Source: an uncultured Chloroflexia bacterium (GTDB lineage: Bacteria; Chloroflexota; Limnocylindria; Limnocylindrales; CSP1-4). Taken from it: a stretch of DNA of 64,000 nucleotides. Position numbers and translations under genes: made by a program. Positions within the stretch are counted from its first letter, which is position 1. Each line of letters begins with the position of its first letter. The stretch is taken from NCBI GenBank assembly GCA_963772565.1, contig CAVYXU010000004.1, positions 3,886-67,885 on the forward strand, in the 5' to 3' direction. The notes beneath the pieces are model-generated. The model had not been told where the DNA came from. It made no database searches and saw only the letters and a list, made by a program, of their open reading frames with translations. This document shows positions 26,385 through 44,369 of this stretch, piece by piece.

Positions 26385-26390
26385 CGGCAC

Positions 26391-28668: not shown

Positions 28669-28799
28669 GGCCGTGCGACTCACCACCGGGCGCGGGCCTG
28701 TCCGGCTGCCCCTTGACCCCGGGCGAGCGGCCGGACCATGCTCTTGTCCGCGGTGGCCGGCTGAAGCGTACGCGAAGCGGCCGCGCGGACGTTGAGGCG

Positions 28800-28937: not shown

Positions 28938-29061
28938 CATCAGGCCCTCTCGCGGTTGCTCGGCGCGCCCGGCTGCGCCGGCCGCGCCGCGCCGGCCGCG
29001 CCGGGGCCGTGCCGCGGCGGGGTCGCGCCACGCCCTGCGCTCGCTGGCTGACGGCCCGGTG

Positions 29062-29067
29062 TAGATT
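29062..29067 (+). promoter_or_regulatory. -10-like hexamer TAGATT 6 nt upstream of ATG (leaderless-type)
   Basis: TAGATT-gcgggc-ATG. Confidence 0.45.
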
Positions 29068-29073
29068 GCGGGC

Positions 29074-30309
29074 ATGGAACACTCAACCGGGCCCAACGGC
29101 CACGTCTACCTCGTCAGCGCCGCGCGTACCCCGATCGGCAAGTTCGGCGGCGCGCTCGCCGGCGTCCCCGCCACCGAGCTCGGTGCCACCGCGATCCGTG
29201 CCGCCGTCGACCGATCGGGCCTGCCCGGCGACGCGCCCATCGACGAGGTCATCATGGGCCAGGTGCTCCAGGCCGGCGCCGGCCAGGCACCCGCGCGGCA
29301 GGCGCTGCTGCGGGCCGGTCTCGCCGACACCACGCCCGCGACCACGATCAACCGCGTCTGCGGGTCGGGACTCAAGGCGATCATGCTCGCCACCGCCGGC
29401 ATCCGCGCGGGCGATGGCGACGTGTACGTCGCCGGCGGCATGGAGTCCATGAACCAGGCGCCGTTCCTGCTGCGCAAGGCGCGCTTCGGGTATCGGTTGG
29501 GCAACGGCACGCTCGAGGATGCGACCCAGCTCGACGGCCTGTGGTGCGCGGTGGAGGACTGCCACATGGGCACCCATGCGGAGCGCGTGGCGATCTCCAA
29601 CAAGGTCAGCCGCGAGGACCAGGACACGTTTGCCCTCGAGAGCCACCTGCGGGCGGTCGCCGCAATCGACGCCGGCCGTTTCGACGACGAGATGGCGCCC
29701 GTCACGATCCGCGACGCGAAGGGCCGCGAGACGGTCGTTGCCGTTGACGAGAGCCCGCGCCGGGACACCACCGCCGAGGCGCTGGCGAGGCTCAAGCCCG
29801 TGTTCCCGCTCCCGGACGGAGAGGATCGCGGTGATGCGACCACCGGAACCGTGACCGCAGGCAACGCGCCCGGGATCACGGACGGGGCGGCGGCCACCGT
29901 CGTCGCGTCGGAGCGCGCGGTCGAGCAGCATGGCCTCAAACCCCTCGCCCGGATCGTCGGATACGCCCAGGCCGAGGTCACGCCCAAGTGGCTGTTCCTC
30001 GCGCCGATTCAGGGGGTGCGCGGCCTCGAGGCGAAGACCGGGCTCTCGCCGGCCGATTTTGACCTGATCGAGATCAACGAGGCGTTCGCCGCTCAGACGC
30101 TCGCCGACGGGCGGGAGCTGGGCTTCGACTGGTCGAAGGTCAACGTCAACGGCGGCGCCATCGCGCTGGGGCACCCGGTCGGGGCGTCCGGTGCGCGCAT
30201 CGTCGCCACGCTGCTCCACGAGCTGCGGCGTCGCGAGGGCCGCTACGGGATGGCGACGTTGTGCCTCGGCGGCGGAGGCTCGGTCGCGATGGCGTTCGAG
30301 CGCGTCTGA
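29074..30309 (+). CDS. acetyl-CoA C-acetyltransferase (thiolase)
   Basis: NRVCGSGLKA active-site Cys and a C-terminal CLGGGGS motif. Confidence 0.95.
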   Translation: MEHSTGPNGHVYLVSAARTPIGKFGGALAGVPATELGATAIRAAVDRSGLPGDAPIDEVIMGQVLQAGAGQAPARQALLRAGLADTTPATTINRVCGSGLKAIMLATAGIRAGDGDVYVAGGMESMNQAPFLLRKARFGYRLGNGTLEDATQLDGLWCAVEDCHMGTHAERVAISNKVSREDQDTFALESHLRAVAAIDAGRFDDEMAPVTIRDAKGRETVVAVDESPRRDTTAEALARLKPVFPLPDGEDRGDATTGTVTAGNAPGITDGAAATVVASERAVEQHGLKPLARIVGYAQAEVTPKWLFLAPIQGVRGLEAKTGLSPADFDLIEINEAFAAQTLADGRELGFDWSKVNVNGGAIALGHPVGASGARIVATLLHELRRREGRYGMATLCLGGGGSVAMAFERV

Positions 30310-30356
30310 CGCGACGGTCTGTCGTCAGCCGCGCCGTGCGACGAAGCACGGGTGGC

Positions 30357-30443
30357 GATTGCCGGCCCCGCGGCGACGGCGCCATGCAGCCTCGACAACG
30401 CCCCGCGGCGACGGCGCCATTGCCGGCCCCGCGGCGACGGCGT
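30357..30443. repeat. intergenic short direct repeats (ccccgcggcgacggcg x3; attgccggcccc x2)
   Basis: Copies start at 30366, 30401 and 30427. Confidence 0.7.
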
Positions 30444-30453
30444 AGAACGAAGG

Positions 30454-30690
30454 TCACGGACCGCGGTCGCGCAGCTTCGGATGATGGGGCAGCAGGTTGT
30501 GCGTCCCGCATGCCGGACACCCGACCCAGCTCAGCCGTGACCCGAAGAACAGCTCGAGGACCCAGCGGCTGAAGCGGGTCCGGCAGAAGGCGCAGGTCGC
30601 CTCCCAGCGCACGAACACGTAAAGCAGGTTCGGAGGGAAAGCGCCGATGCGGATGGGATTGATCGCCTCGATTTCCAGGGCCACGCGCAT
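30454..30690 (-). CDS. small hypothetical protein with CxxC...CxxC (zinc-ribbon-like)
   Basis: High-GC3 ORF containing CAFC and CPAC pairs. Start is ATG 30690 or GTG 30717. Confidence 0.5.
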   Translation of the reverse strand: MRVALEIEAINPIRIGAFPPNLLYVFVRWEATCAFCRTRFSRWVLELFFGSRLSWVGCPACGTHNLLPHHPKLRDRGP

Positions 30691-30894
30691 GTCCTCCTCG
30701 TCGCGATTCTTGACCACGGAGGCGACGCTGTCGAACCGTCTTCCGGGCTATCGCACTGCCTGCGACGGCACGGTCGAACAGGCGGGCTCAACGCCCGACC
30801 CCGTCGACCCGCCCCGCGCAACACCGTCATTGACGTAGCAGGCCCGCACGGCTGACGATCAACCAGCCTTCCGACCACCAGCCCGAGGACCCCG

Positions 30895-32403
30895 ATGCCC
30901 GAGGCAGCCACCACCACCGAGACCTTCCGCCTGTTCATCGCCGGCCGCTGGGTCAGTGGCGTGTCCGGCGAGACGTTCGACAGCGTCAACCCCGCCGACA
31001 CGCGAGATGTCGTCGGGCGGTTCCAGGCGGGCTCCCCGGCCGATGTTGCGATGGCGATCCGCGCCGCCGACACGGCGCTGCCCGAGTGGAAGGCGACCCC
31101 GGCGCCCAAGCGGGGCGAGCTCCTGTACCGCTTCGGGGCGCTGATGGCCGAGCACAAGGAACGGCTCGCCCGGGCGATGACCCGGGAGATGGGGAAGGTG
31201 CTGGCCGAAGCGCGGGGCGACGTCCAGGAGGGGATCGACATCGCGTTCCTGATGGCCGGCGAGGGCCGCCGGATGTTCGGCGACACGGTTCCGTCGGAGC
31301 TGCCGGACAAATGGGCGATGAGCATCCGCCAGCCGATCGGGATCGCCGGGATCATCACGCCCTGGAACTTTCCGATCGCGATCCCGTGCTGGAAGATGAT
31401 GCCCGCGCTCGTGGCCGGCAACACGGTGGTGTTCAAGCCCTCGAGCGACGCGCCCCATTGCGCCACCCTGCTGGTCGAGCTGATGGCGGAGGCGGGGTTC
31501 CCGCCGGGCGTCGTCAACCTGGTCACGGGGTCCGGCGCGGCCGTCGGTGATCCGATCGTGGACAACCCGGAGATCGGCGTGATCTCGTTCACCGGCTCGT
31601 CGTCGACGGGGCGCACGATCGCGGAGCGCGCGGGACGGCGGCTCAAGCGGCTCAGCCTTGAGCTGGGTGGCAAGAACGCCGTCGTCGTCCTTCGTGACGC
31701 GGACCTCGACCTCGCGGTCGACGGGATCCTGTGGTCGGCGTTCGGGACCACCGGCCAGCGGTGCACCGCTTGCTCACGGGTGATCGCGGACCGGGCGATC
31801 GCCGATGACCTGGTCGCGCGGCTGGAGGCGCGCACGAAGGCGCTCCGCCTCGGGTCCGGGCTGGACGAGACCGTCGACGTGGGTCCCCTGGTCAACGCCA
31901 GCGCCACCGACAAGGTCGAGCGGTACGTTGCCATCGGCCGGCGGGAAGCCGACCTCGTGACCGGTGGTGAGCGGGCGACGGGCGGCGCCCTTGACCACGG
32001 CCATTTCTTCCAGCCGACGATCTTCCACGGCGTGGCCCCCATGGCGACCATCGCCCAGGAGGAGATCTTCGGCCCGGTCCTCTCGGTCGTGCCGGTCGAC
32101 GGCTACGACGAGGCGATGATGGCCGCCAACCAGGTGAAGTACGGGCTGTCGGCGTCCGTGTACACGCGTGACGTGAACATGGCCTTCCGTGCGATGCGCG
32201 ACTTCGAGACCGGGATCGTGTACGTCAACGCCGGTACCACCGGCGCCGAGACACACCTTCCATTCGGCGGCTGGAAGAACACCGGCAACGGCCATCGCGA
32301 GGCGGGCCACGTGGCGCTCGACACGTTCACGGAATGGAAGGCTGTGTACGTGGACTTCAGCGGCCACCTGCAGCGAGCCCAGATCGACAACCAGCCGGCC
32401 TGA
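30895..32403 (+). CDS. NAD(P)-dependent aldehyde dehydrogenase
   Basis: ELGGKNA and GQRCTA catalytic motifs. Confidence 0.95.
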   Translation: MPEAATTTETFRLFIAGRWVSGVSGETFDSVNPADTRDVVGRFQAGSPADVAMAIRAADTALPEWKATPAPKRGELLYRFGALMAEHKERLARAMTREMGKVLAEARGDVQEGIDIAFLMAGEGRRMFGDTVPSELPDKWAMSIRQPIGIAGIITPWNFPIAIPCWKMMPALVAGNTVVFKPSSDAPHCATLLVELMAEAGFPPGVVNLVTGSGAAVGDPIVDNPEIGVISFTGSSSTGRTIAERAGRRLKRLSLELGGKNAVVVLRDADLDLAVDGILWSAFGTTGQRCTACSRVIADRAIADDLVARLEARTKALRLGSGLDETVDVGPLVNASATDKVERYVAIGRREADLVTGGERATGGALDHGHFFQPTIFHGVAPMATIAQEEIFGPVLSVVPVDGYDEAMMAANQVKYGLSASVYTRDVNMAFRAMRDFETGIVYVNAGTTGAETHLPFGGWKNTGNGHREAGHVALDTFTEWKAVYVDFSGHLQRAQIDNQPA

Positions 32404-33115: not shown

Positions 33116-36100
33116 CTACTTCTGGAAGTCGAACAGCACCTCGTGTGATGTCCCATCCACGAGTGTGAAGCTCAGCTGCTGGCAGGTCCCGGCCAACGCC
33201 TTGTCGGTCTTCCAGGTGTAGACGTACTGGTCGGCGATCGGGTCATACCGGAGGCTGCCCGTTGCGGCCACGGCGGGGCCGGTCGGGGTCCCATCCGTGC
33301 ACGAGATCGGCGTCGCCGTCGGTCCGCTGGCGAAGATGTCCGAGCCGCGATCGCCGCCGAGGCTGAACTTGACGGGCACGGTCCGGCCAGCCTTGGCGGC
33401 GTTGAATCCCGGCGCCGGGTCGACCGGAGGCCGGAACCCGCTGAACGGGAACGGGATCACGAACGTGGCGACGCCCGGATCGTGATCGCTGGTGCCGCGC
33501 GCGACGTCGCCGGGGTAGTCCGCCGGGAAGTCGCTGTTGATGTGCGCAATCCTGAACTGGTCGAGGTTCGCGAGCATCGAGGGCGTCACGAACATCTGGT
33601 CGAGCGTCTGCGCCATGCCCTGGTACACGTAGGAGTAGGCGGACGCAGGCGCCTGGCCGAGCAGGACCTCCCACAGGTTCTTCAGCCCGAGGGACGGATC
33701 GTAGAGCGCGCCGAGCTGGTCGCTCGAGCCGGCCTGCCCGATCGGCGCGAACGGGTCATCCGGTCGCGGATAGACGTTGAGGTCGCCGCCGACGACGACC
33801 CGGGCATCCGGGTTGGCCTGCTCGAGATAGGCCACCAGCGCGGCGTTGTAGTTGGCCTGCTCGGTGCGGTGGTCGACGCACGCGTCAGGGCCGCTCTTGA
33901 AGTGGTTGTTGACCACGTACACGTCCTGCTGGAGATCGGCGTCGATCCCGGTGCCGTGGATCCGGAACAGGGCGACGCCGGGCGCGCGCGGGAAGACCCA
34001 CGCGGTCTCGCACGCGGAGACGCCGGCCGGCAGCTCGGCGTTGAGGGTCTTGGGGTTGGACACGTCGGCGTCGTACGGGACAGGCGTGTAGCCACCGATC
34101 GCGGGATCGCCGCCCAGGACCGGGTCACCCGCCGGTGGCAGGAGCTCGACCCGGTCGGTGCGGTAGAGGAAGGCCGGGGCGATGCCCCGCAGGTCCGAGC
34201 TGTCGCGGTCGAACGCGGCGTCGTAGGCGGGACCGCCCAGGGCGCTGATCCGAAGCGCGAGCTCCTGGAGCACGTCGGGCTTGCCGTCCGCGTTGTTGGT
34301 CGTGCCGCAGGCGAGGGCTCCGGCCGACACGGTACAGATGTCCTGGTTCTCGACCTCCTGGACCATCAGGATGTCCGGGCTGTGGAGGTCGGTGATGACC
34401 TGGTGCGCGATGTCGCCGAGTCGCGCCTGGTAGGCGGCGTCGCTCGCCGGCACGTAGTCGAACGGCGAGGACACGGCCGCCAGGAACGGGGCGACCCTGG
34501 GACACCCGCTGTCACCGGTGAAGTCGCAGCCGGAGAATGGGTCGTCGCGGTAGTCGTACAGGTTCTCGAGGTTGTAGTCGGCGATGCTGTAGCGCAGGCT
34601 GCGATCGAAGGCCTGCGGCGGGTTGTCGGCCGAAGGGTCGACGCCCTCGTTGAACACCGGCTGCCCGGTGATCTCGATCCGGTACTTGCCGAAGGTGTAG
34701 TTGAGCCCGCCCGATGGGGCGTTGGTGAGCGTATCGAACGTCCGCGCCGGATCGATCAGCGCCTGGCCGTCGGCCTCGGTCGCCTTGATGCCGAGGCTGC
34801 CCAGCAGGATCCGGTATCCGTTGCCATCCCAGCTGGTCGGGTCGTAGTTGTCATCGAGCAGGTGGGCATCGCGGAAGGCACGACGCCAGAACGGGTTCGC
34901 GCGCTGCGCGATCGTGCTGTCGGAACGCGCAACCCAGATCTCGGCATCGGCCGGGTTGAACACGTTTCGACCACCGAGGACGACGCTGCCCGCGGGGGCC
35001 TCCACGCGGCTGCCCTGGAGGCGCTCCCAGTAGCGGTTGGCATCGTCGAGCGCGACCGGCGGGTCCGCGACGGCGGCCGGGACCTCGGCGTCGACGTCGA
35101 CGCCGGTGCGCACGACCTTGAGCAGCCGCAGGCTGCCCAGCTCGGTCATGTTGTAGTACTCGCTGACCCGCCCCGACATGACGACCTCGTCGCCGACCTG
35201 TGGCACGTAGTAGCCGCCACCCGAGACGAGGATGTCGCCGTAGGCACCCATGAACGCGAACAGCCCGTCGGACGTCGTCGCGTCGCCGTCAGCCGTGGCG
35301 GCCGTGTTCTGGAGGAAGAGGCCCTTGTACGTGTTCGCGGAGTTGCTGATCGCCTGCAGGGTGTTCTCGTAGATCACGCCCTGGACGGTCACCGTCTGGC
35401 CGACGTACGGGGACAGGTGCGCGGTCCCGCTGTCCGTGTCGAGGACGGGACCGTTGACCGTCCCGATCGGAAGGATCTCCAGCACGGTGAGCGCGATCGT
35501 CGCGCTTCCGGTGCGCGCCTGGGCGTCGTCGAGCGTGCAAGCGAGGCTCGTCTCCCCGCCGGCCGTGCCGTCGGCGATCGAGGCCTGGAACGAGAACGTG
35601 AGATCGCCGGCGACATCGTCACCGTTGGTGCCGTCGTCGAACAGCGCCTGCGTCGCGGAGCCGCCGATCGCGGTCAGGTCACATGTCACGGCAAGGCCGG
35701 TGCTTGTCGGGGACGACCCCGGCGTCACGGCGACGGTCAGCAGTGTGGTGTCGCCGGCGAACAGGCTGTTCGGGGTTGCGGCGCCGACGCCGTTCGGGTC
35801 CGTGGGACCGGTGCAGCTGTGGAGCGGCGAGGCCGAGTTGCGGGGCGCCGGGGCGTCCGCCGCGAAGTCCGCGCTGTTGTCATCGGTGTCCGTGCAGCCG
35901 CCATTCGCGCGGAGGTCGGCCGTCGTGTTCGACGTCGCCGGTGCCGCGGCCCCGCCCTCGAAGAAGTTCGCGCTGCCCCAGCCGATCAGGTCGACGATCT
36001 GGGCGAGCTGCGACGGAGAGCAGGGGTTGTTGCTGCCGTTACAGCCGAGCGAGTCGGCCGTGTTGGCGAGCGCGACCTTGCCGGCCGTCCCCGACATCGC

Positions 36101-36502
36101 GATCGGGGACGTGTCGGTGATGTCCGGCGTCGGGAGGGCCGTCGTGCCTCCGGATCCCTGCGCTTCCTCGACGAGGATGTACTGGCCGGGCCCGATCGAG
36201 CCGGCGAGCGGCGTGAGCTGGGTGCTGCTCGAACCGAGGTTGCCGGTGCCCGTCGCCGACGCGTACTGGACGGACCAGCCGCTCAATGAGACCGTGGAGG
36301 TCCCGCGGTTGAACAGCTCGATGAAGTCGTTGGTGTACGTCGCACCGCTGTTGCCGCCACCGCCATACACCTGGCTGATCACGACATCGGGTGATGCGGC
36401 AGCGGCCGGGGCGGGTAGTGCCGCCCCTGCCGATCCCGCTATCAGGGCTGCTGCGACGGCGAGAATTCCCGCACGCCTGTAGGCAAGCCGCGCATTCGGC
36501 AT
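33116..36502 (-). CDS. ExeM/NucH-type extracellular nuclease (lamin-tail domain plus endonuclease/exonuclease/phosphatase domain)
   Basis: Signal peptide, then an N-terminal VISQVYGGGGNSGATYTNDFIELFN LTD signature, and a C-terminal EEP region (ILMVQEVEN, GTSDHDP). Confidence 0.85.
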   Translation of the reverse strand: MPNARLAYRRAGILAVAAALIAGSAGAALPAPAAAASPDVVISQVYGGGGNSGATYTNDFIELFNRGTSTVSLSGWSVQYASATGTGNLGSSSTQLTPLAGSIGPGQYILVEEAQGSGGTTALPTPDITDTSPIAMSGTAGKVALANTADSLGCNGSNNPCSPSQLAQIVDLIGWGSANFFEGGAAAPATSNTTADLRANGGCTDTDDNSADFAADAPAPRNSASPLHSCTGPTDPNGVGAATPNSLFAGDTTLLTVAVTPGSSPTSTGLAVTCDLTAIGGSATQALFDDGTNGDDVAGDLTFSFQASIADGTAGGETSLACTLDDAQARTGSATIALTVLEILPIGTVNGPVLDTDSGTAHLSPYVGQTVTVQGVIYENTLQAISNSANTYKGLFLQNTAATADGDATTSDGLFAFMGAYGDILVSGGGYYVPQVGDEVVMSGRVSEYYNMTELGSLRLLKVVRTGVDVDAEVPAAVADPPVALDDANRYWERLQGSRVEAPAGSVVLGGRNVFNPADAEIWVARSDSTIAQRANPFWRRAFRDAHLLDDNYDPTSWDGNGYRILLGSLGIKATEADGQALIDPARTFDTLTNAPSGGLNYTFGKYRIEITGQPVFNEGVDPSADNPPQAFDRSLRYSIADYNLENLYDYRDDPFSGCDFTGDSGCPRVAPFLAAVSSPFDYVPASDAAYQARLGDIAHQVITDLHSPDILMVQEVENQDICTVSAGALACGTTNNADGKPDVLQELALRISALGGPAYDAAFDRDSSDLRGIAPAFLYRTDRVELLPPAGDPVLGGDPAIGGYTPVPYDADVSNPKTLNAELPAGVSACETAWVFPRAPGVALFRIHGTGIDADLQQDVYVVNNHFKSGPDACVDHRTEQANYNAALVAYLEQANPDARVVVGGDLNVYPRPDDPFAPIGQAGSSDQLGALYDPSLGLKNLWEVLLGQAPASAYSYVYQGMAQTLDQMFVTPSMLANLDQFRIAHINSDFPADYPGDVARGTSDHDPGVATFVIPFPFSGFRPPVDPAPGFNAAKAGRTVPVKFSLGGDRGSDIFASGPTATPISCTDGTPTGPAVAATGSLRYDPIADQYVYTWKTDKALAGTCQQLSFTLVDGTSHEVLFDFQK

Positions 36503-36908: not shown

Positions 36909-38330
36909 GTGATGGCTGACGACGGGCTCTACGCTGCGCTGGTCCGGCGCGGGATGACCCGGCGCTCATTCCTCCAGTTCTCGACCGCCATGGCGGCCGC
37001 CCTTGCGCTGCCAGCCGCATACGCCCCCCGGATCGCGGAGGCCGTGGCCAAGGCGCCCCGGCTGCCGGTGATCTGGCTCCGCGGCCAGGCCTGTGGTGGC
37101 GAGACTGAGGCGTTCCTCCGCGCGTCGGACCCGACGGCCGGATCGCTGCTGCTCGACCTGTTGTCGGTCGAGTACCACGAGACGTTGATGGCCCCGACCG
37201 GCGCCGCCGCCGACCTTGCGAGGACCAGCGCGATGGAGCGCTACCCGAACGGGTACCTGGCGGTGGTCGAGGGTTCGATCCCGACCGGAGCCGGTGGCGC
37301 CTACTGCATGGTGGGCGGTCGCGCGATCGCCGACATCGTGCGCGAGGTGAGCGACGGTGCGCTGGCCACGATCGCGGTCGGCGCGTGCGCGTTCGATGGC
37401 GGCGCCCCTGGCGCCGGCGGCGGCGTGACCGACGCCCGCAGCGTGAGCGAGATCATGTCAGGCGGTGGTCCGCTGATCGCGCTGCCGGGCAGCCCGCTCA
37501 ACGTGGACAACCTTGTCGCGACGATCGTCCACTACCTGACGTTCAACGACTGGCCTGCGACCGACGGCCGGGGCCGCCCCCTGTTCGCCTACGGCCCGTT
37601 GATCCACAACGAATGCGAACGTCGGCCGCATTTCGAGTTCGGGGAGTTCGTGCAGGCATGGGGCGACGAGGGCGCCCAGAAGGGCTGGTGCCTGTACAAG
37701 ATGGGCTGCAAGGGTCCGGAGTCGTTCGGAAACTGCGCGACCCAGCGGTTTGCTGAGGGCACGAGCTGGCCGATCCAGGCCGGGCACGGCTGCATCGGCT
37801 GCACGATGCCGGACTTCTGGGACGCGATGAGCCCGTTCTACCGGAGGCTCCCGTCGCCGGTGCCGTTCTTCCCCAACGTGACTGCGGACGGCGTCGGAAC
37901 TGCCCTGGTGGGCGGGATCGGGGCTGTCGCGGCAGTCCACGGCGCCGGCATGTACCTGCGGACGCGCCGCAACCGTCGTGCTGAGCGGCGAGCCGCCGCA
38001 ACAGCCGCAGCAACAGCCGCCACCGCAACAGCCGATGGGACGCCGGTGGCCGTGTCGGTCCCGGTCGACACAACAGCCGCCCGGGTTCGCGCGGTCTCGC
38101 CTGCACCGGCGACGCCCGAGCCGGTTGCCCCCACCGAGCTGGTCCCAGCCCCGCCGGCCCCGGCCACGCCGGATTCCAGTGATCGCCCCGAGCCGGCAAC
38201 GGTCGAGCCGGCAACGGTCGAGCCGGCAACGGTCGAGCCGGTCCTGGCCACGCCGGAATCCGGCGATCGTCCTGATCCCGCGACGCCCGAGCCGGCCCCG
38301 GCCACCGGCGACGATCCCGAGGCGCGCTGA
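36909..38330 (+). CDS. [NiFe]-hydrogenase small subunit, Tat-exported, membrane-anchored (HyaA-like) with long disordered C-terminal tail
   Basis: RRSFLQF twin-arginine signal. Medial and distal cluster ligands are present (HNEC, WCLY, GCKGP, GNCAT, HGCIGC). C-terminal TM helix followed by about 115 aa of A/T/P/E-rich tail. Confidence 0.95.
   Translation: MMADDGLYAALVRRGMTRRSFLQFSTAMAAALALPAAYAPRIAEAVAKAPRLPVIWLRGQACGGETEAFLRASDPTAGSLLLDLLSVEYHETLMAPTGAAADLARTSAMERYPNGYLAVVEGSIPTGAGGAYCMVGGRAIADIVREVSDGALATIAVGACAFDGGAPGAGGGVTDARSVSEIMSGGGPLIALPGSPLNVDNLVATIVHYLTFNDWPATDGRGRPLFAYGPLIHNECERRPHFEFGEFVQAWGDEGAQKGWCLYKMGCKGPESFGNCATQRFAEGTSWPIQAGHGCIGCTMPDFWDAMSPFYRRLPSPVPFFPNVTADGVGTALVGGIGAVAAVHGAGMYLRTRRNRRAERRAAATAAATAATATADGTPVAVSVPVDTTAARVRAVSPAPATPEPVAPTELVPAPPAPATPDSSDRPEPATVEPATVEPATVEPVLATPESGDRPDPATPEPAPATGDDPEAR
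38190..38243 (+). repeat. 15-bp tandem repeat x3.6 (gagccggcaacggtc) encoding EPATV repeats
   Basis: Perfect tandem copies inside the small-subunit tail. Confidence 0.9.
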
Positions 38331-38331: not shown

Positions 38332-40107
38332 ATGGCCCGGATCGCCATCGACCCTGTCACCCGCGTAGGCGGCCACCTCCGGATCGAGGCGGACGTCGCC
38401 GCCGGCGAGGTCCGGGATGCGTGGAGCGCCGGGACCATGTTCCGGGGCCTGGAGCTGGTCCTCCGCGGCCGCGATCCCCGCGATGCGTGGATGATCGCCG
38501 ACCGCGTCTGCGGCACCTGCACGGGCGTGCATGCTCTGGCGTCCGTGAGGGCCGTGGAGGACGCGCTGGGCATCACGATCCCGGACAACGCCCGGCTCGT
38601 CCGCAACATCCTCGCGGCCACGCTCGCGGTCCGCGACCACATCGTGCAGTTCTACCTCGCCCAGCTTCCGGACTGGGTCGATGCGACGGTCGCGCTGGGC
38701 GCGGACTCCACCGCTGCCTCGACCCTCGCGCGCTCGATGAGCGACTGGCCGCAGTCCAGCCCGGACTACTTCAGCGGCGTCCGCGACCGGCTGGCCACGG
38801 CAACCTCGTCCGGGCAGGCGGGCCCGTTTGCGCCATCGTTCGCCGGTCATCCGGGCTACCAGCTGTCGCCGGAGCTGAGCCTGGTTCTGCTCGCACACGC
38901 GATCGAGGCGCTCGACTGGCAGCGCGACTTCATGCGGATCCACACGCTGCTGGGCGGCCGCGACCCGCACCCGCAGTCGTACCTCGTCGGCGGCGTCTCG
39001 CTGACGCCGCCCTGGGGCGGCCCGCCTGCACGGCGCGCCGGCGAGCATCCGCAGCTGCCGGACCGCAACACGCCGTCGGCGTTGAGCGATGCGGGCCTCA
39101 CCCTGATCGACAACCTGATCAGCAAGGCCCAGACGTTCATCTCGTGGGTCCTGATGCCCGACGCTCTCCAGCTGGCGCAGGCGTACCCGGACTGGGGCAA
39201 GGTCGGCCGGGGGACGGGCAGCTACCTGGCCTTCGGCGACTACCCGGGCGCGGCCGTCGAGGCCGGCAAGCTGTTCCTGCCGCGAGGTCGGATCCTCGGT
39301 GGCAACCTCGCGTCCCTGTCCGAGATGAACGCGACCTCGGTTGCCGAATCGGTGGCTGCCTCCTGGTATGCCCAGGACGACAGCGATGCCGGCCCGCGCC
39401 AACCCGTCAACGGGCGCACCGACCCGGTGTACTCCGGGCCCCCGCTCCCGCTGGTCTCGCTCGAGGGATCCACCCGGTACAGCTGGCTCAAGGCTCCGCG
39501 CTACAACGACCAGCCGATGGAGGTTGGCCCGCTGGCGCGGATGGCGGTTGCCTACGGCGACGGGCAGGTCGATGTCCGGGCAGCCATGAACACGGCGCTC
39601 ACCACGTTGGGGCTCGAGCCGGCCGCGCTGTTCAGCACCCTGGGCCGGATGGTCGCCAGGGCGGTCGAGACGCGGGTCCTCGCCAGCCAGGCAGGCGACT
39701 GGCTGATCGAGCTGCAGGGGAACCTCGCCGCAGGCGACCTCGCGCTGGTCGATGGCGGCCACTGGGATCCCGGCACCTGGCCCGCGTCGGCAGAAGGCTC
39801 GTCGCTGGGTGAGGGGCCGCGGGGTGCCGTGGGCCACTGGGTGTCGATCCGCGACGGCGTCATCGGCGACTACCAGATCGTCGACGCGACCACGTGGAAC
39901 GCTTCTCCGCGTGATGCCACGGGAACGCGCGGCCCGCTCGAGCAGGCGCTGATCGGCACGCGCGTATCCGACCCGGGCCAGCCGCTGGAGATCCTGCGGA
40001 CCGTCCACTCGTTCGATCCGTGCATGGCCTGTGCCGTCCACGTCTTCGATCCGCGCGCCGGCGGCCCGATCCAGATCCGCGTCAACCGCACGGAGACCGC
40101 CCGATGA
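38332..40107 (+). CDS. [NiFe]-hydrogenase large subunit (group 1, HyaB-like)
   Basis: RVCGTCTGVH and DPCMACAVH Ni-Fe ligand motifs, with a C-terminal extension for protease cleavage. Confidence 0.95.
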   Translation: MARIAIDPVTRVGGHLRIEADVAAGEVRDAWSAGTMFRGLELVLRGRDPRDAWMIADRVCGTCTGVHALASVRAVEDALGITIPDNARLVRNILAATLAVRDHIVQFYLAQLPDWVDATVALGADSTAASTLARSMSDWPQSSPDYFSGVRDRLATATSSGQAGPFAPSFAGHPGYQLSPELSLVLLAHAIEALDWQRDFMRIHTLLGGRDPHPQSYLVGGVSLTPPWGGPPARRAGEHPQLPDRNTPSALSDAGLTLIDNLISKAQTFISWVLMPDALQLAQAYPDWGKVGRGTGSYLAFGDYPGAAVEAGKLFLPRGRILGGNLASLSEMNATSVAESVAASWYAQDDSDAGPRQPVNGRTDPVYSGPPLPLVSLEGSTRYSWLKAPRYNDQPMEVGPLARMAVAYGDGQVDVRAAMNTALTTLGLEPAALFSTLGRMVARAVETRVLASQAGDWLIELQGNLAAGDLALVDGGHWDPGTWPASAEGSSLGEGPRGAVGHWVSIRDGVIGDYQIVDATTWNASPRDATGTRGPLEQALIGTRVSDPGQPLEILRTVHSFDPCMACAVHVFDPRAGGPIQIRVNRTETAR

Positions 40108-40940
40108 CGACCGTCCAGAAGCCGTTGCCGGGCCGTGTCGAGGCGGGGCCGACGCCGCCCGTCCTGCCGGTTCCGTCACCCGCGAGCGGGCTCGACCCTG
40201 TGAAGACACCGCCGCCGGTCGCCGAGGCCGCCCGCCCTGTCGACCGGCCCCACGAGCGCGTTCAGCTGTACGTGTGGCAGATCCCCGTGCGCTTCACCCA
40301 CTGGCTGACCGCCGGCTGCATCGTGGTCCTCAGCGTGACCGGCGGCTATATCGCCGATCCGTTCCTCATCGCGCCCGGCGGCGGCGTGATGACGACGATC
40401 CGGTTGATCCACATCCTCACGGCATTCACCTTCCTCATGTCGGGACTGCTCCGGACCTACTGGCTGCTGGCGGGAAACCGCTTCGCTCGCTGGTCTGCAT
40501 TCATTCCGACCTCGCGCTACCAGGCGATGGAGCTGTTCCGCCAGGCCGGGTTCTACGGCTTCATCCGCAAGGAGATCCCGAAGGTCCTGGGCCACAACCA
40601 GCTGGCCGCGACGGCGTACCTCGCGCTGTTCGCGCTCCTGCTCGTCGAGACCGTCACCGGGTTTGCCCTCGACGGCCTGATGGGGTCGGAGCCCGGTGCG
40701 ACGCTGTTCGGCTGGCTGCGCGAGCTGATGGGTCCGCAGCTGCTCCGCCTGATCCACCACCTCGCGATGTGGGCGATCCTCGCGATCGCGCTGTTCCACG
40801 TGTATAGCTGCGTGCTCGTCGATCACATCGAGAAGAACGGGCTGATGTCGAGCATCTTCAGCGGCTTCAAGTTCCCCACCAGGGAAGAGGTCGTCGAGTC
40901 GCGCGACGGCGGTGCGGACCTCCTGGAGCGCATCGAATGA
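40104..40940 (+). CDS. Ni/Fe-hydrogenase b-type cytochrome subunit (HyaC-like)
   Basis: The start overlaps the upstream stop (ATGA). Four TM helices and an RFTHW motif. Confidence 0.85.
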   Translation: MTTVQKPLPGRVEAGPTPPVLPVPSPASGLDPVKTPPPVAEAARPVDRPHERVQLYVWQIPVRFTHWLTAGCIVVLSVTGGYIADPFLIAPGGGVMTTIRLIHILTAFTFLMSGLLRTYWLLAGNRFARWSAFIPTSRYQAMELFRQAGFYGFIRKEIPKVLGHNQLAATAYLALFALLLVETVTGFALDGLMGSEPGATLFGWLRELMGPQLLRLIHHLAMWAILAIALFHVYSCVLVDHIEKNGLMSSIFSGFKFPTREEVVESRDGGADLLERIE

Positions 40941-41476
40941 CCCGCGGCGACCGCCCGATCGTGGTCATCGGTATCGGCAACGTCCTGCTCGGCGACGACG
41001 GCGTCGGCGTCCGCGCGGTCGAGGCACTGGGCCGGATGGCCGAGGCCGACCCCGGGGTGCTGCCTCGCGGCACTCGACTCCTCGACGGTGGGACGCTCGG
41101 GCTCAATCTTCTGAACGACCTCGACGACGCACGGGCGCTCATCCTGGTCGACGCCGTCGACCTTGGACGTGCGCCGGGAACGGTGAGCGTGATGCGGGGC
41201 GATGAGCTCGCTGTCGCGGACGGTTTCCGGACCCCGTCGCGCCAGGGTGGGGTGGGGGAGCTGCTGGCGACCGCGCGGCTGCTCGCGATCCTGCCGCCTG
41301 ACGTGCTCCTGGTCGGTGTCCAGGCGGGCGCGATCAATGTTGGCCAGGCATTGTCGCGCGAGGTCGCGGCGGCGATGCCTGCGGTGGCCGAGGCCATTCG
41401 GCGCGAAGCCCATGCGCTGGCGGGCTCGAGTCCGTCGTCATCCCGGACCCCGGAGCTGGCAGGAGCGGTCTCATGA
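40937..41476 (+). CDS. hydrogenase maturation endopeptidase (HyaD/HybD family)
   Basis: VIGIGNVLLGDDGVG and LVDAV motifs. The start overlaps the upstream stop. Confidence 0.9.
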   Translation: MTRGDRPIVVIGIGNVLLGDDGVGVRAVEALGRMAEADPGVLPRGTRLLDGGTLGLNLLNDLDDARALILVDAVDLGRAPGTVSVMRGDELAVADGFRTPSRQGGVGELLATARLLAILPPDVLLVGVQAGAINVGQALSREVAAAMPAVAEAIRREAHALAGSSPSSSRTPELAGAVS

Positions 41477-42219
41477 GCACCAGGCTCGACCGGGGGCTGC
41501 GCGCCCTCATCGTTGCGAACTTCGTGGTCGTTGCCGCGCTCGCGGGCCTGATGGTCGGCGGGTGGCTCCAGATCCTCCCGGACCTCGATGCACAGCCCAG
41601 CCCGAGCGCGTCCGCGGCGCCATCGATCGAACTGATGCAGATGGGGCTGGCCCACATCCCGACCTCGAACGACTGCCTCCTGTGCCACGACCAGGGCGGG
41701 GAGGGGGGTCTCAAGCCGATCCCTGCGCTCGGGCATCCGCTCGACGGCTGGGGCGCCTGCCTCGTGTGCCACACCAACGAGGACCTGGGTCGCGCGGCAC
41801 CGGGCCATGAGGACATCGCCCAGTCCGAGTGCCTCAACTGCCACACGGTGGCGCAGCCCGGGCCAGCGATCACGCAGGCGCACTCGGAGCTCAACCAGCC
41901 CTGCCTCGACTGCCACGGCAGCGTTGCCCACCTTCCGTCGAGCATGGTCGGGCGCAACCAGGACGATTGCTGGCTGTGCCACAAGCCGGCGGCGGAGAAG
42001 CCACCCCAGGAGCCGCACCCGAACAACCCGAACCTCACCTGCCGGTCGTGCCACCAGGCGTCGAATGTCGGCGGCCTGCCGATCGACCACGCGCTCCGCG
42101 CCGACGACACGTGCGTCCTGTGCCACGACATGGACCGCCTCGGCGCGACGCCGACGCTGCCCGGCACGAGGCCGACCCTGCCCGCAACGACGCCTGTACC
42201 GCCCGCCGACGGAACCTAG
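41473..42219 (+). CDS. membrane-anchored heptaheme c-type cytochrome
   Basis: N-terminal TM helix then seven CxxCH motifs (CLLCH, CLVCH, CLNCH, CLDCH, CWLCH, CRSCH, CVLCH). Each of motifs 2-7 is preceded by a His 8-18 residues upstream. ATGA overlap with the protease gene. Confidence 0.9.
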   Translation: MSTRLDRGLRALIVANFVVVAALAGLMVGGWLQILPDLDAQPSPSASAAPSIELMQMGLAHIPTSNDCLLCHDQGGEGGLKPIPALGHPLDGWGACLVCHTNEDLGRAAPGHEDIAQSECLNCHTVAQPGPAITQAHSELNQPCLDCHGSVAHLPSSMVGRNQDDCWLCHKPAAEKPPQEPHPNNPNLTCRSCHQASNVGGLPIDHALRADDTCVLCHDMDRLGATPTLPGTRPTLPATTPVPPADGT

Positions 42220-42276: not shown

Positions 42277-42705
42277 ATGAACGGATCCTCGGGCAACCTC
42301 ATCCGGGTCGGGCAGGCAGCCGAGATGCTCGGCGTGACCGTCGAGACGCTGCGTCGATGGGAGGCCGAGGGCCGTCTCCGGGTTGAGCGCTCGCCGGGTG
42401 GCCAGCGGCTGGTGCCGGTCGCCGAGGTGACGCGCCTGCTCGCCGAGCGTCGCAACGAGACGGCCGACCGGCCCATCGTCGCGCAGTCGGCGCGCAACCG
42501 GTTCGAGGGCATCATCACCCGCGTCGAGAAGGACCGGGTCGCGGCCGTGGTCGAGGTGCTGGCGGGACCGCACCGCGTGGTCAGCCTGATGACGGCCGAG
42601 GCGGTCGACGAGCTCGGTCTCAAGGTTGGCGACGAGGCCGTGTGCGTCGTCAAGGCGACGAACGTGGTCGTGGAGATCCCGTCGAGGCGCGAGACCCGCG
42701 GATGA
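42277..42705 (+). CDS. MerR/excisionase-type HTH plus TOBE (Mop) domain molybdate-responsive regulator
   Basis: N-terminal IRVGQAAEMLGVTVETLRRW HTH and a C-terminal SARNRFEGIIT...VCVVKATNVVV TOBE domain. Confidence 0.85.
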   Translation: MNGSSGNLIRVGQAAEMLGVTVETLRRWEAEGRLRVERSPGGQRLVPVAEVTRLLAERRNETADRPIVAQSARNRFEGIITRVEKDRVAAVVEVLAGPHRVVSLMTAEAVDELGLKVGDEAVCVVKATNVVVEIPSRRETRG

Positions 42706-43530
42706 TGCCGCCTGCCAACCGGGCCGCGCGCGCGGCCCGGGTTGCCCTCGTGTCGCTCCTCGCCCTCGGTGTCGTGGCGGGGTGCACGCTGGCGACCGGT
42801 GGAGACGGCCCCGGGCGGCCGGGCGCCGGTCGAGCTCCGGGTCGCCGCCGCCGCGTCGCTCCGGACCGCCATCGTTGCCCTCCGGGACGCCTACCTGACC
42901 TCGCACCCCGGGACCACGATCACGATCGCAACGGACTCGTCGGCCGCGCTCCGCACCCAGATCGAGCAGGGCGCCCCGTTCGACGTGTTCCTGTCGGCTG
43001 ACGAGGAGAACCCGCAGGCCCTCGCCGACGAGCACCTGGCGGCCGGCGACCCGATCGCGTTCGCGGGCAACTCGGTGGCGCTCGTCGTCCCGGCCGACAA
43101 CCCGGGCAGGATCGCGACGCCCGCCGATCTCGCCCGTCCCGGGATCCGCCTGGTCGCCGCCGGGGCGCGCGTCCCGATCACGACCTACGCCGATCGGGTG
43201 ATCGCCAATCTCGGCTCCATCGCCGGGTACCCACCGGGCTACGCGGCGGCGCTCGGGGCGAACACGGTGAGCCGCGAGGACAACGTGGCGGCCGTGCTGG
43301 CGAAGGTCGAGCTGGGCGAGGGCGATGCCGGGTTCGTGTACGCCACCGATGCCGCGGGCAGCACCAGTGTGCTGACCATCGAGCTCCCCGAGGGAGCCGA
43401 CGTCCCGGCGCGATACGCGGGCGTCGTGATCGCGAACGGCCACGTGGACGCTGCTGCCGGCTTTCTCGGATGGGTGGCCGGTCCGGCCGGCCAGGCGATC
43501 CTGCACCCGCTGGGGTTCCTCGCGCCATGA
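42702..43530 (+). CDS. modA: molybdate ABC transporter substrate-binding lipoprotein, interrupted by a +1 frameshift at about 42807-42828
   Basis: The signal peptide and lipobox (VVAGC) are in frame 0 from ATG 42702. The mature ModA (VAAAASL..., FLSADE, GFVYATD) is in the 42742..43530 frame. Confidence 0.8.
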
Positions 43531-44369
43531 CCGCCGTCCCGGCACCTGGTGGGTCGGCGGCACGAGGTTCGCGCCGGGCCGGCAGATCGTCGCTCGCCGT
43601 GGCGTGGATCCTCGGGTTGGTGCTCGCGCTGCCCGTGGTCGTGCTGGTCGCGAGGGCGGTCGCGGGCGGATCGTTCGCGGCGATGCTCGGCTCCGCTGCC
43701 GTCGTCGACGCGCTGGCGCTCAGCCTGGTCACCACGACGTGCAGCCTCGCGGTGACGATCGTGATCGGAATGCCGCTGGCGTTCGTCCTCGCACGGCGTC
43801 GCTTCCGCGGCTCCGCGCTGCTGGAGACCGTGGTCGATCTGCCGATCGTGCTGCCCCCGGCGGTCGCCGGGCTTGCGCTCCTGCTCGTGCTCGGGCGGCG
43901 CGGGCTGCTCGGCGGACCACTCGACCTGCTCGGCCTCACCATCCCGTTCACCACCCTCGCGGTCGTGATCGCCCAGGTGTTCGTGGCCTCTCCGTTCTTC
44001 ATCCGATCCGCGCGTGCCGGCCTGGCGGCGGTGGACCGCGACGTCGAGGATGCTGCGCGGGTGGACGGCGCGACGGAGGCCGACCTCATCCGCTGGATCA
44101 CGGTTCCGCTCGCGGCGCCGGCGCTCGCGGCCGGGCTGGTGATGGCGTGGGCCCGGGCGCTGGGCGAGTTCGGCGCCACGATCATGTTCGCGGGCAACGT
44201 CGAGGGGCGGACCCAGACGCTGCCGCTGCTCGTGTACGGAGAGTTCCAGGGCGGCGACCTCGATGCGTCGATCGCCGCGGCCGCCGTGCTGGTCCTCGCC
44301 GCGGCCGGCGTGCTGCTGGCGGTCCGGGCGCTCCACTGGGGCCGCGCGCTCGATACGGCGTTCGGCTGA
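43527..44369 (+). CDS. modB: molybdate ABC transporter permease
   Basis: EAA-loop region (DAARVDGATE...PLAAPAL). The start overlaps the modA stop. Confidence 0.9.
   Translation: MTAVPAPGGSAARGSRRAGRSSLAVAWILGLVLALPVVVLVARAVAGGSFAAMLGSAAVVDALALSLVTTTCSLAVTIVIGMPLAFVLARRRFRGSALLETVVDLPIVLPPAVAGLALLLVLGRRGLLGGPLDLLGLTIPFTTLAVVIAQVFVASPFFIRSARAGLAAVDRDVEDAARVDGATEADLIRWITVPLAAPALAAGLVMAWARALGEFGATIMFAGNVEGRTQTLPLLVYGEFQGGDLDASIAAAAVLVLAAAGVLLAVRALHWGRALDTAFG

What the first reader, a model, noticed from the sequence alone, without database searches (positions are those of the whole stretch)
36909..38330. Small subunit appears to have Glu and Ser in place of two of the four canonical proximal Fe-S cluster cysteines
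I aligned by eye to E. coli HyaA and the D. gigas small subunit, both recalled from memory. VIWLRGQACGGETEAFL aligns with VVWIHGLECTCCTESFI, so Cys17 is kept and Cys20 becomes Glu (gag 37101-37103). IAVGACAFDGG aligns with IAWGTCASWGC, so Cys115 is kept. ALPGSPLNV aligns with KVPGCPPIP, so Cys149 becomes Ser (agc 37491-37493). All medial and distal ligands are intact. Known variants include six-Cys O2-tolerant clusters and 3Cys+Asp in group 1h, but I know of no Cys2/Glu/Ser set. This implies either an unusual proximal cluster or impaired electron relay.
Basis: partly seen in the sequence, partly recalled or inferred. Interest (0 to 1): 0.8.

Follow-up and report, generated by a model that had tools for sequence, protein, structure and literature searches.

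The report
Hydrogenase iron-sulfur site with two cysteines
A soil Chloroflexota uptake hydrogenase really does carry Glu and Ser where two of the four cysteines that hold its first electron-relay iron-sulfur cluster normally sit; the Glu is one state of a position that is never cysteine in a very large clade, while the Ser is a rare change that arose twice and has since been kept under strong purifying selection, so the enzyme probably works with an oxygen-ligated cluster.

Summary
In the small subunit (36909-38330, +), Glu65 (GAG 37101-37103) aligns with canonical Cys20 and Ser195 (AGC 37491-37493) with Cys149. Cys62 and Cys160 are kept, and all medial and distal ligands are intact.

The two changes have different histories.
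- **Position 65** is never Cys in the 120 closest homologues (N77, E22, D19, Q2). Asn or Asp occupies it across Chloroflexota, Acidobacteriota, Desulfuromonadales and other relatives down to about 46% identity. It is a clade trait, comparable in kind to the 3Cys+Asp cluster of group 1h.
- **Ser195** is rare. It occurs in four closely related sequences (including this window) and in one independent lineage. Every other family member has Cys.

Ser195 is not decay or error. The AGC codon recurs in separate assemblies, dN/dS within the Ser clade is 0.06-0.10, and the five-gene operon is intact. Both Ser events arose on an Ala61 plus acidic-65 background.

The wider subclade (Candidatus Limnocylindrales-type) is also odd. 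Its large subunit lacks the proton-gate Glu (RxEGH reads RVGGH), has an invariant insertion and an invariant Asp518, and is always followed by a heptahaem cytochrome c gene.

Verdict: a new variant of a known kind. The cluster chemistry is inferred, not shown.

The parts
36909..38330 (+). [NiFe] hydrogenase small subunit gene (473 aa): Tat signal, Fe-S domain, C-terminal membrane helix and a low-complexity tail
36960..36965 (+). Twin-arginine codons (Arg18-Arg19 of RRSFLQF) of the Tat export signal
   Evidence: Pfam TAT_signal 2.2e-4 and TIGR01409 1.3e-4; coordinates
37089..37091 (+). Ala61 (GCC), the residue before the first proximal Cys. It is Glu in the canonical enzymes aligned here and most often Asp in this family. 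Ala is the background on which both Ser events arose.
37092..37094 (+). Cys62 (TGT) = canonical proximal ligand Cys17; invariant in the family
37101..37103 (+). Glu65 (GAG) in place of canonical proximal ligand Cys20. The family has N77, E22, D19 and Q2 here, never Cys.
37386..37388 (+). Cys160 (TGC) = canonical proximal ligand Cys115; invariant
37395..37397 (+). Asp163 (GAT) in CAFDGG, where canonical enzymes have Phe, Tyr or Trp. Conserved in 118/120; a possible extra oxygen ligand or hydrogen-bond partner (inference).
37491..37493 (+). Ser195 (AGC) in place of canonical proximal ligand Cys149. It is one transversion from the TGC/TGT of its relatives.
37605..37802 (+). Block holding the intact distal ligands (His233, Cys236, Cys261, Cys267) and medial ligands (Cys276, Cys295, Cys298)
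37896..37958 (+). Predicted C-terminal membrane-anchor helix (about residues 330-350), followed by an Arg-rich stretch
   Evidence: sequence; helix 326-344 in the AF2 model
38332..40107 (+). [NiFe] hydrogenase large subunit gene (591 aa) with exactly four Cys (60, 63, 564, 567) and a C-terminal extension after His570
38368..38370 (+). Large-subunit Gly13 where the canonical proton-gate Glu of RxEGH sits (the motif reads TRVGGH)
   Evidence: role of the Glu from PMC3325256
40104..40940 (+). b-type cytochrome membrane subunit (TIGR02125 1.1e-38)
40937..41476 (+). HyaD/HybD-type large-subunit maturation endopeptidase
41473..42219 (+). Heptahaem c-type cytochrome (7 CxxCH) with a hydrophobic N-terminal stretch. 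It follows the protease gene in every locus of this subclade that is long enough.

Best explanation
This is a working, Tat-exported, membrane-anchored H2-uptake [NiFe] hydrogenase. Its operon reads small subunit, large subunit, cytochrome b, maturation protease, heptahaem cytochrome c. It belongs to a Chloroflexota (Candidatus Limnocylindrales-type) subclade of a large clade in which the second cysteine of the proximal CxxC motif has been replaced by Asn, Asp, Glu or Gln. In that clade the proximal cluster is held by three cysteines plus, at most, one oxygen or nitrogen ligand. This is the same kind of departure as the 3Cys+Asp [4Fe-4S] of group 1h and the all-[3Fe-4S] relay of Huc. In the small lineage that includes this window, a single TGC-to-AGC transversion then replaced a third ligand (Cys149 equivalent) by Ser, on a background that already had Ala61 and a carboxylate at position 65. 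I infer that the cluster is still assembled, with Cys62, Cys160, the Glu65 carboxylate and the Ser195 hydroxyl/alkoxide. Asp163 is a possible helper. Under this inference electrons still pass to the intact medial and distal clusters and on to cytochrome b or the heptahaem cytochrome, probably with a shifted potential. SHOWN: the substitutions, their distribution, two independent origins, inheritance through diversification, purifying selection and an intact operon. INFERRED: that Glu65 and Ser195 actually ligate iron, the cluster type, and any change in potential or O2 behaviour.
For: The alignment is unambiguous. Position 65 is N/E/D/Q in 120/120 close homologues. Asn or Asp also occupies it in relatives from GTDB genomes of many phyla down to about 46% identity, where canonical ECTGC reappears. 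Ser195 is found in WIN (= P0393), P0001, P0390 and P0391 (94-96% identity; NCBI, ENA and JGI assemblies), always as AGC where DNA was seen. Ser also occurs in P0107 and P0403, whose nearest relatives P0080 (92%) and P0081 (91%) have Cys. A neighbour-joining tree built without the three focal columns nests the two Ser groups in different Cys clades. Pairwise dN/dS within the Ser clade is 0.063-0.099 at dS 0.23-0.30, against 0.11 between Ser and Cys lineages. The other four operon genes give 0.12-0.19. L002 against its Cys relatives gives 0.13, the same as a Cys-Cys pair at 0.12. The large subunit keeps its four Ni/Fe cysteines and its C-terminal extension, and the protease gene is present. Both Ser events lie on the Ala61 plus Asp/Glu65 background, which only 8 of 120 representatives have. 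P0400 and P0081 show that this background existed with Cys. Precedents for non-Cys proximal ligation with retained activity come from the literature: 3Cys+Asp in C. necator AH and [3Fe-4S] clusters in Huc (PMC11023054; PMC10017518).
Against: There is no direct evidence that a cluster assembles or what it is. The AF2 monomer model is unusable at the cluster loops (pLDDT below 50 at residues 62-64, 166-171 and 230-319), and no coordinates were available for geometry. Ser195 is rare: 2 of 120 cluster representatives. A metagenome scan for LPGSPxNxxNL with an AGY codon gave 25 hits, none of them a hydrogenase. Rarity would also fit a slightly deleterious allele that does not last long. No compensating new Cys or His was found in either subunit. 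No hyp maturation genes lie in the window, so expression and maturation cannot be judged here. The dN/dS values are pairwise Nei-Gojobori estimates in a 71% G+C genome, not a branch model. The background association (naive p about 0.004) ignores phylogenetic non-independence.
Confidence: 0.6

Rival explanations
1. The enzyme is functional, but Ser195 and/or Glu65 are not iron ligands. The proximal site would hold a smaller or differently bound cluster, for example a [3Fe-4S] or [2Fe-2S] type held by Cys62, Cys160 and Asp163 or water. Ser195 would then be a tolerated second-shell change.
For: Most family members have Asn at position 65, which is a poor iron ligand (my own knowledge). This suggests the clade may already run with a three-ligand [3Fe-4S]-like proximal cluster, as Huc does. 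Asp163 is conserved in 118/120. Purifying selection is equally compatible with this reading.
Against: Asp163 also occurs alongside a canonical Cys at position 65 (L063, L065), and many Asn-65 proteins lack it, so it is not a dedicated replacement ligand. A cluster with only two protein thiolates and no other ligand has no precedent that I know of in this relay. Both Ser events occurred only where position 65 is a carboxylate, which argues that residue 65 matters for tolerating the loss of Cys195.
Confidence: 0.22
2. Ser195 is a mildly deleterious or loss-of-function mutation, and the hydrogenase in this lineage is impaired or on its way to being lost.
For: The allele is rare in a family where Cys is otherwise invariant and was not found in JGI metagenomes. 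The Cys149-equivalent ligand is otherwise essentially universal.
Against: The allele has persisted through 4-6% protein divergence and dS of about 0.3 in at least four sequences. dN/dS is 0.06-0.10, which is lower than in comparisons with Cys lineages. All five operon genes are intact and constrained in WIN, L001 and L112. An independent second origin also persists in two distinct sequences.
Confidence: 0.08
3. The Ser and Glu codons are sequencing, assembly or binning artefacts.
For: The nearest sequences come from metagenome assemblies. The reads behind the window could not be inspected.
Against: The same AGC codon, in a different synonymous context, is present in L001, L112, L113 and L002, which come from different samples and archives. 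GAG at position 65 is shared by L001, L003 and L004.
Confidence: 0.01

Closest known systems
Group 1 membrane-bound uptake [NiFe] hydrogenases with solved structures: D. vulgaris MF 1H2A (1b), E. coli/Citrobacter Hyd-2 6EHQ/5XVB (1c), E. coli Hyd-1 3UQY and C. necator MBH 3RGW (1d), A. vinosum 3MYR (1e)
   Same: Same fold and subunit set. The small subunit matches at 1e-72 to 1e-82 and the large subunit at up to 6.6e-153. Shared features: Tat signal, cytochrome b partner, HyaD/HybD protease, four Ni/Fe cysteines, a His+3Cys distal site and a 3Cys medial site.
   Different: The proximal site has 2 Cys instead of 4 (or 6 in group 1d). The large subunit has Gly instead of the RxEGH glutamate, loses four of the five histidines of the HxHxxHxxHxH motif, and has a conserved insertion (W228-G-G-P231...H239) and Asp518. 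A heptahaem cytochrome c gene is appended to the operon.
Clade with Cys20 replaced by Asn/Asp in Acidobacteriota, Desulfuromonadales, Roseiflexus, Acidimicrobiia and others (probably HydDB group 1f, 'oxygen-protecting')
   Same: The same small-subunit motif type ([DS]C[AS]G[ND]) with three proximal Cys. Many members also have CA[FW]DGG. Identity to the window is 46-63%. The subunit sizes resemble those reported for Frankia group 1f (small about 410-420 aa, large about 573 aa; PMC11879354).
   Different: Those enzymes keep TRIEGH in the large subunit, keep Cys at the 149 position, and have no heptahaem cytochrome gene after the protease gene. Assignment of either clade to group 1f was not tested with the HydDB classifier.
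Group 1h actinobacterial-type hydrogenase (C. necator AH, PDB 5AA5)
   Same: A natural proximal cluster with a carboxylate in place of one cysteine (3Cys+Asp [4Fe-4S]). That Asp is required for O2 insensitivity (PMC11023054).
   Different: Only a distant relative (small subunit 1.6e-15, large subunit 3.5e-30). AH keeps three cysteines; the window keeps two. I could not verify with the tools whether the AH Asp occupies the same column as Glu65.
Group 2a Huc of Mycobacterium smegmatis (PDB 7UTD/8DQV)
   Same: Non-cysteine residues at the fourth ligand position of the relay clusters, giving [3Fe-4S] clusters of higher potential. This was proposed to bias the enzyme toward H2 oxidation in air (PMC10017518).
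   Different: A distant relative (small subunit about 5e-19). Huc reduces menaquinone directly and its clusters keep three Cys each. Here the medial and distal sites are canonical.

Membership tests
[NiFe] hydrogenase, group 1 (membrane-bound H2-uptake) | Small subunit with a twin-arginine (Tat) signal peptide | tested here: met
   RRSFLQF at residues 18-24. Pfam TAT_signal 2.2e-4 (21.4 bits, just under the 22.7-bit gathering score). TIGR01409 22.1 bits, above its cut-off of 16.7.
[NiFe] hydrogenase, group 1 (membrane-bound H2-uptake) | Large subunit with the two Ni/Fe-binding cysteine pairs (RxCGxCxxxH and DPCxxCxxH) and a cleavable C-terminal extension, plus a cognate endopeptidase | tested here: met
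   RVCGTCTGVH (Cys60, Cys63). DPCMACAVH (Cys564, Cys567) followed by 21 residues. HyaD/HybD-type protease gene at 40937-41476.
[NiFe] hydrogenase, group 1 (membrane-bound H2-uptake) | b-type cytochrome membrane partner | tested here: met
   TIGR02125 1.1e-38 for 40104-40940.
[NiFe] hydrogenase, group 1 (membrane-bound H2-uptake) | Conserved Glu next to the active site in the N-terminal RxEGH motif (proton gate) | tested here: not met
   The motif reads TRVGGH. Position 13 is G110, D4, N3, S1 and A1 among 120 homologues, never Glu. All 61 relatives outside the subclade have Glu.
Standard (4-Cys) proximal [4Fe-4S] small subunits (groups 1a-c, 1e) | Four cysteines at positions 17, 20, 115 and 149 (E. 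coli Hyd-1 numbering) | tested here: not met
   The residues are Cys62, Glu65, Cys160 and Ser195.
Group 1d O2-tolerant hydrogenases (6-Cys [4Fe-3S]) | Supernumerary Cys19 and Cys120 | tested here: not met
   Gly64 and Gly165 occupy these columns.
HydDB group 1f | Placement by the HydDB large-subunit classifier or phylogeny | not testable with these tools
   Only indirect support. The next relatives come from taxa reported to carry group 1f: Acidobacteriota, Desulfuromonadales, Roseiflexus and actinobacteria (PMC5900883 listed; PMC11879354). The window's subclade departs from them at several invariant large-subunit sites.
Group 1h (Hhy / actinobacterial type) | Close sequence relationship to HofK/HofG-type subunits, with a 3Cys+Asp proximal cluster | tested here: not met
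   5AA5 is among the weakest PDB hits (1.6e-15 and 3.5e-30). The window has a Tat signal and only two proximal Cys.
Group 1l (Hyl) | Small and large subunit genes separated by about five small transmembrane ORFs, plus a Rieske-type HylE | tested here: not met
   The small subunit gene ends at 38330 and the large subunit gene starts at 38332. No such ORFs are present. Gene order for group 1l is from bioRxiv 10.1101/2020.08.06.239558.
Group 2a (Huc) | Close sequence relationship to HucS/HucL | tested here: not met
   7UTD/7UUR hits are only about 5e-19 (small subunit) and about 1e-43 (large subunit). The distal His+3Cys site is intact.

The most novel reading that the evidence does not exclude
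The Limnocylindrales-type subclade is an undescribed functional subtype of group 1 [NiFe] hydrogenase. It would have a rebuilt proton route (no Glu gate, an invariant Asp518 and an invariant WGGP...H insertion). It would also have an altered gas-channel end (Val replaced mostly by Thr/Ser/Ala in RxCGVC), an oxygen-ligated proximal cluster and a dedicated heptahaem cytochrome c partner. Within it, the window's lineage would be the first natural hydrogenase to run its proximal cluster on two cysteines plus Glu and Ser. That would show the 'essential' cysteine set is replaceable when a carboxylate is present.
Probability: 0.3. Interest if true: 0.75.

Novelty: new variant of a known kind. Interest (0 to 1): 0.55.

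Why it matters
Ligation of the proximal cluster is linked to O2 tolerance and catalytic bias in [NiFe] hydrogenases. The variants covered in the 2024 review I read are 4Cys, 6Cys, 3Cys+Asp and all-[3Fe-4S]. A naturally selected 2Cys+Glu+Ser site, with Cys-bearing sisters at 91% identity, provides a ready-made natural mutant series for testing how thiolate-to-oxygen ligation changes potential, bias and O2 behaviour. The series runs Asp61/Glu65/Cys195, then Ala61/Glu65/Cys195, then Ala61/Glu65/Ser195. The wider subclade appears mostly in soil and sediment metagenome assemblies. It lacks the glutamate usually described as the proton gate, so it also bears on the long-running question of which proton route [NiFe] hydrogenases need. 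If the enzyme turned out to be inactive, the finding would reduce to a curiosity of slow gene decay.

Tried and rejected
1. **AF2 model of the small subunit from a 25-sequence alignment.** Mean pLDDT was 64.8 and below 50 across the cluster loops and the whole C-terminal Fe-S domain. No coordinates are returned, so no geometry could be derived, and I did not run a fold search on it.
2. **Metagenome DNA scan for more Ser alleles.** It returned 25 matches, none encoding a hydrogenase. The scan covers only AGY Ser codons and CTN Leu codons.
3. **Search for a compensating new Cys or His in the Ser lineages.** None was found in the small subunit or the large subunit.
4. **Asp163 as the dedicated replacement ligand.** Rejected, because Asp163 occurs independently of the state at position 65.
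5. **Finding which column the group 1h Asp occupies.** I queried PDB with a TCTGD-like representative, P0265. It turned out not to be group 1h, and the 5AA5 alignment was not printed, so the question stays open.
6. **Literature searches for an Asn-, Glu- or Ser-ligated proximal cluster or a description of this clade.** Nothing specific turned up. The Greening 2016 survey is not held.
7. **Group 1l, which is reported in the same class of Chloroflexota.** Rejected on gene order.
8. **Pfam scan of other large ORFs in the window.** No hyp genes and no second hydrogenase.
9. **Look-up of P0393, the window's own protein without its first residue.** It is not on record, so the source record was not identified.
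Full report
**What is there**

The ORF at 36909..38330 (+) is a 473-aa [NiFe] hydrogenase small subunit (TIGR00391 7e-116; Pfam Oxidored_q6, NiFe_hyd_SSU_C and TAT_signal). It opens a tightly packed operon:
- large subunit, 38332-40107 (PF00374, 5e-176)
- b-type cytochrome, 40104-40940 (TIGR02125)
- HyaD/HybD-type maturation protease, 40937-41476
- a c-type cytochrome with seven CxxCH motifs, 41473-42219

The window is 71% G+C. The closest named relatives are metagenome-assembled genomes labelled Chloroflexota or Candidatus Limnocylindrales.

**Checking the observation**

HMMER alignments of the small subunit to 43 distinct solved small subunits are ungapped at both motifs.
- 'GQACGGETEAF' lies on 'AECTGCSESV' (D. 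vulgaris) and 'AQECTGCTESL' (Hyd-2).
- 'GACAFDGG' lies on 'GTCATFGG'.
- 'LPGSPLN' lies on 'IAGCPPN' or 'IPGCPPN'.

Assuming signal-peptide cleavage after Ala45 (inference from the sequence), precursor residues 62, 65 and 160 correspond to mature positions 17, 20 and 115. Residue 195 corresponds to 149 after a one-residue insertion.

So Cys17 and Cys115 are kept, Cys20 is Glu65 (GAG 37101-37103) and Cys149 is Ser195 (AGC 37491-37493). The distal ligands (His233, Cys236, Cys261, Cys267) and medial ligands (Cys276, Cys295, Cys298) are present.

**The two substitutions have different histories**

Among the 120 closest cluster representatives (67-96% identity), the Cys20 column is Asn in 77, Glu in 22, Asp in 19 and Gln in 2. 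It is never Cys.

In 80 species-representative genomes, motifs such as DCAGN and SCSGD continue down to about 46% identity. They occur in Chloroflexota, Acidobacteriota, Desulfuromonadales, Acidimicrobiia, Gemmatimonadota and Proteobacteria. A few Cys-bearing members (DCAGC, DCTGC) are interspersed. The fully canonical ECTGC motif appears only among the most distant hits. The same pattern shows in the 150 best representatives of 50%-identity clusters.

Glu65 is therefore one state of a position that this large clade never fills with cysteine among close relatives.

By its taxa, subunit sizes and cytochrome b partner, the clade is probably HydDB group 1f. Members of 1f have been linked to atmospheric H2 oxidation (PMC7174314; PMC11879354). 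I could not run the classifier, so this stays an inference.

The Cys149 column is different. It is Cys in 117 of 120 representatives, a gap in one, and Ser in only P0001 and P0107.

**Ser195 is real, inherited and recurrent**

- P0001's 90% cluster holds four distinct full-length sequences: WIN (= P0393), P0001, P0390 and P0391. They are 94-96% identical and come from NCBI, ENA and JGI assemblies. All have Ala61, Glu65 and Ser195.
- Where DNA was available (L001, L112, L113), the codon is AGC in differing synonymous contexts.
- The sister cluster P0002 (ten members, 89-92% identity) has Cys (TGC) throughout, so the change is a single T-to-A transversion.
- P0107 and P0403 (69% identity to the window) also have Ser (AGC in L002, the P0107 locus). 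Their nearest relatives, P0080 (92%) and P0081 (91%), have Cys.
- A neighbour-joining tree built without columns 61, 65 and 195 nests the two Ser groups in separate Cys clades.

This gives two independent origins.

**The gene is not decaying**

Pairwise Nei-Gojobori dN/dS over small-subunit residues 1-345:

| Comparison | dN/dS |
|---|---|
| Within the Ser clade (dS 0.23-0.30) | 0.063-0.099 |
| Ser versus Cys sisters | about 0.11 |
| L002 versus its Cys relatives | 0.13 |
| Cys versus Cys pair in that lineage | 0.12 |

For WIN against L001, the large subunit, cytochrome b, protease and heptahaem cytochrome give 0.12-0.19. All five genes are intact and syntenic in WIN, L001 and L112. Constraint has therefore held since the Cys-to-Ser change.

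**A hint of epistasis**

Both Ser events sit on an Ala61 plus acidic-65 background. Only 8 of 120 representatives have that background. P0400 (Ala61/Glu65/Cys195) and P0081 (Ala61/Asp65/Cys195) show that the background came first.

The naive probability of two events both landing there is about 0.004. This ignores phylogenetic structure, so it is only suggestive. It still points to a carboxylate at position 65 being what makes loss of the Cys195 thiolate tolerable.

No new Cys or His appears in either subunit of the Ser lineages. Asp163 (CAFDGG, 118/120) is conserved but varies independently of position 65, so it is not a dedicated substitute.

**How it most likely works**

Established precedent shows that [NiFe] hydrogenases can function with non-cysteine proximal ligation.
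- The C. necator group 1h enzyme uses 3Cys+Asp, and that Asp is needed for O2 insensitivity (PMC11023054).
- Huc runs on three [3Fe-4S] clusters whose fourth positions are non-cysteine. This raises the relay potential (PMC10017518).
- From my own knowledge, engineered Cys-to-Ser variants of several Fe-S proteins still assemble clusters with Ser-O ligation, and IspG naturally uses 3Cys+Glu.

I therefore infer a proximal cluster held by Cys62, Cys160, the Glu65 carboxylate and Ser195 Oγ. It would pass electrons to the canonical medial and distal clusters and then to cytochrome b or the heptahaem cytochrome.

The cluster type, its potential and any effect on O2 tolerance are not shown. The AF2 monomer model was too poor to help.

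**Beyond the finding: the subclade's large subunit is also atypical**

I compared 11 loci of the window's subclade with 61 relatives outside it, and then surveyed 120 large-subunit homologues at 55-94% identity.
- The RxEGH glutamate is never Glu among the 120 (G110, D4, N3, S1, A1). All 61 outside relatives have Glu.
- Val of RxCGVC is mostly Thr, Ser or Ala.
- HFYHLHAL reads QFYLAQLP in the window.
- An insertion with invariant Trp228-Gly-Gly-Pro231 and His239 is present in all 120.
- Canonical Val518 is Asp in all 120.

That glutamate is the reported proton gate (Glu25 in D. fructosovorans). However, E14Q in the T. roseopersicina Hyn enzyme kept about 50% activity, whereas Arg487, Asp103 and His104 were essential or nearly so (PMC3325256).

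The equivalents of that second route are kept here: Arg497, Asp102, His103 and Glu446. The four Ni/Fe cysteines are also kept. Loss of the gate therefore does not imply an inactive enzyme.

The heptahaem cytochrome gene follows the protease gene in every subclade locus long enough to show it. It never does so in the outside relatives.

**Comparison and novelty**

The enzyme passes the structural tests for a group 1 membrane-bound uptake hydrogenase: Tat signal, Ni/Fe cysteine motifs, protease and cytochrome b. It fails two motif-level features usually treated as invariant: the four proximal cysteines and the RxEGH glutamate.

It is not group 1d (no Cys19 or Cys120). It is not 1h or 2a (distant hits only). 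It is not 1l (different gene order).

I found no paper describing an Asn-, Glu- or Ser-substituted proximal site in this clade, or the subclade itself. The held library is incomplete and the HydDB pages could not be consulted.

I rate the finding as a new variant of a known kind, with interest 0.55.
- The Glu alone is ordinary for the family.
- The Ser, together with its recurrence and constraint, would moderately surprise a specialist.
- The subclade's rebuilt large subunit adds weight but was only partly followed up.

Noticed in passing
window 38332-40107 (Gly13 codon 38368-38370; Thr62 38515-38517; Asp518 39883-39885); also L001-L004, L007, L011, L012, L014, L085, L086, L112: The large subunit of this subclade lacks the proton-gate Glu of RxEGH (never Glu in 120 homologues). 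It has Thr/Ser/Ala for the Val of RxCGVC and loses four of the five His of HxHxxHxxHxH. It also carries an insertion with invariant WGGP...H and an invariant Asp518. All 61 more distant relatives are canonical at these sites.
   Followed up: partly
window 41473-42219 (+): A heptahaem c-type cytochrome gene (7 CxxCH, hydrophobic N-terminal stretch) follows the protease gene in every subclade locus long enough to show it. It never occupies that position in the Glu-bearing relatives. This suggests a dedicated electron partner.
   Followed up: partly
large-subunit homologues P0270-P0389 (columns of window residues 497 and 562): In 17 of 120 homologues the active-site 'canopy' Arg (EAPRG) aligns with Gly. 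In 26 of 120 the Asp of DPCxxC is Ala. The window keeps both residues. I did not check whether the two losses co-occur or whether they are alignment artefacts.
   Followed up: no
window 37960-38330, repeat at 38189-38241: After the membrane helix, the small subunit has a Pro/Ala/Thr/Glu-rich tail of about 120 aa. It contains a perfect 15-bp tandem repeat of 3.5 copies (EPATV x3). Tail length varies widely among homologues (total length 357-502 aa).
   Followed up: partly
window 42277-44369 (+): A MerR-HTH/TOBE (ModE-like) regulator, a ModA-like periplasmic binding protein and a ModB-like permease lie directly downstream. They are conserved next to the hydrogenase operon in L001, L003, L004 and L112. 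This is an unexplained link between a molybdate/tungstate-type uptake system and the hydrogenase.
   Followed up: no
window 33116-36502 (-): A 1128-aa secreted-looking protein with a lamin-tail domain and an endonuclease/exonuclease/phosphatase domain lies upstream on the opposite strand. No such gene is called at that position in L001, L003, L004 or L112.
   Followed up: no
L112 versus L003 relative to the window: The small subunit of L112 is closer to the window (94%) than that of L003 (91%). For the large subunit the order reverses (87% against 89%). Across the family the large subunit diverges faster than the small one (64% against 81% for L004). This suggests recombination or uneven rates within the operon.
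   Followed up: no
window 13432-15210, 26262-32403: The flanking genes are housekeeping metabolism: methylmalonyl-CoA mutase, and by synteny with L001 a B12-binding subunit, MeaB, 3-hydroxyacyl-CoA dehydrogenase, thiolase and aldehyde dehydrogenase. No hyp maturation genes or second hydrogenase were seen among the ORFs scanned.
   Followed up: partly
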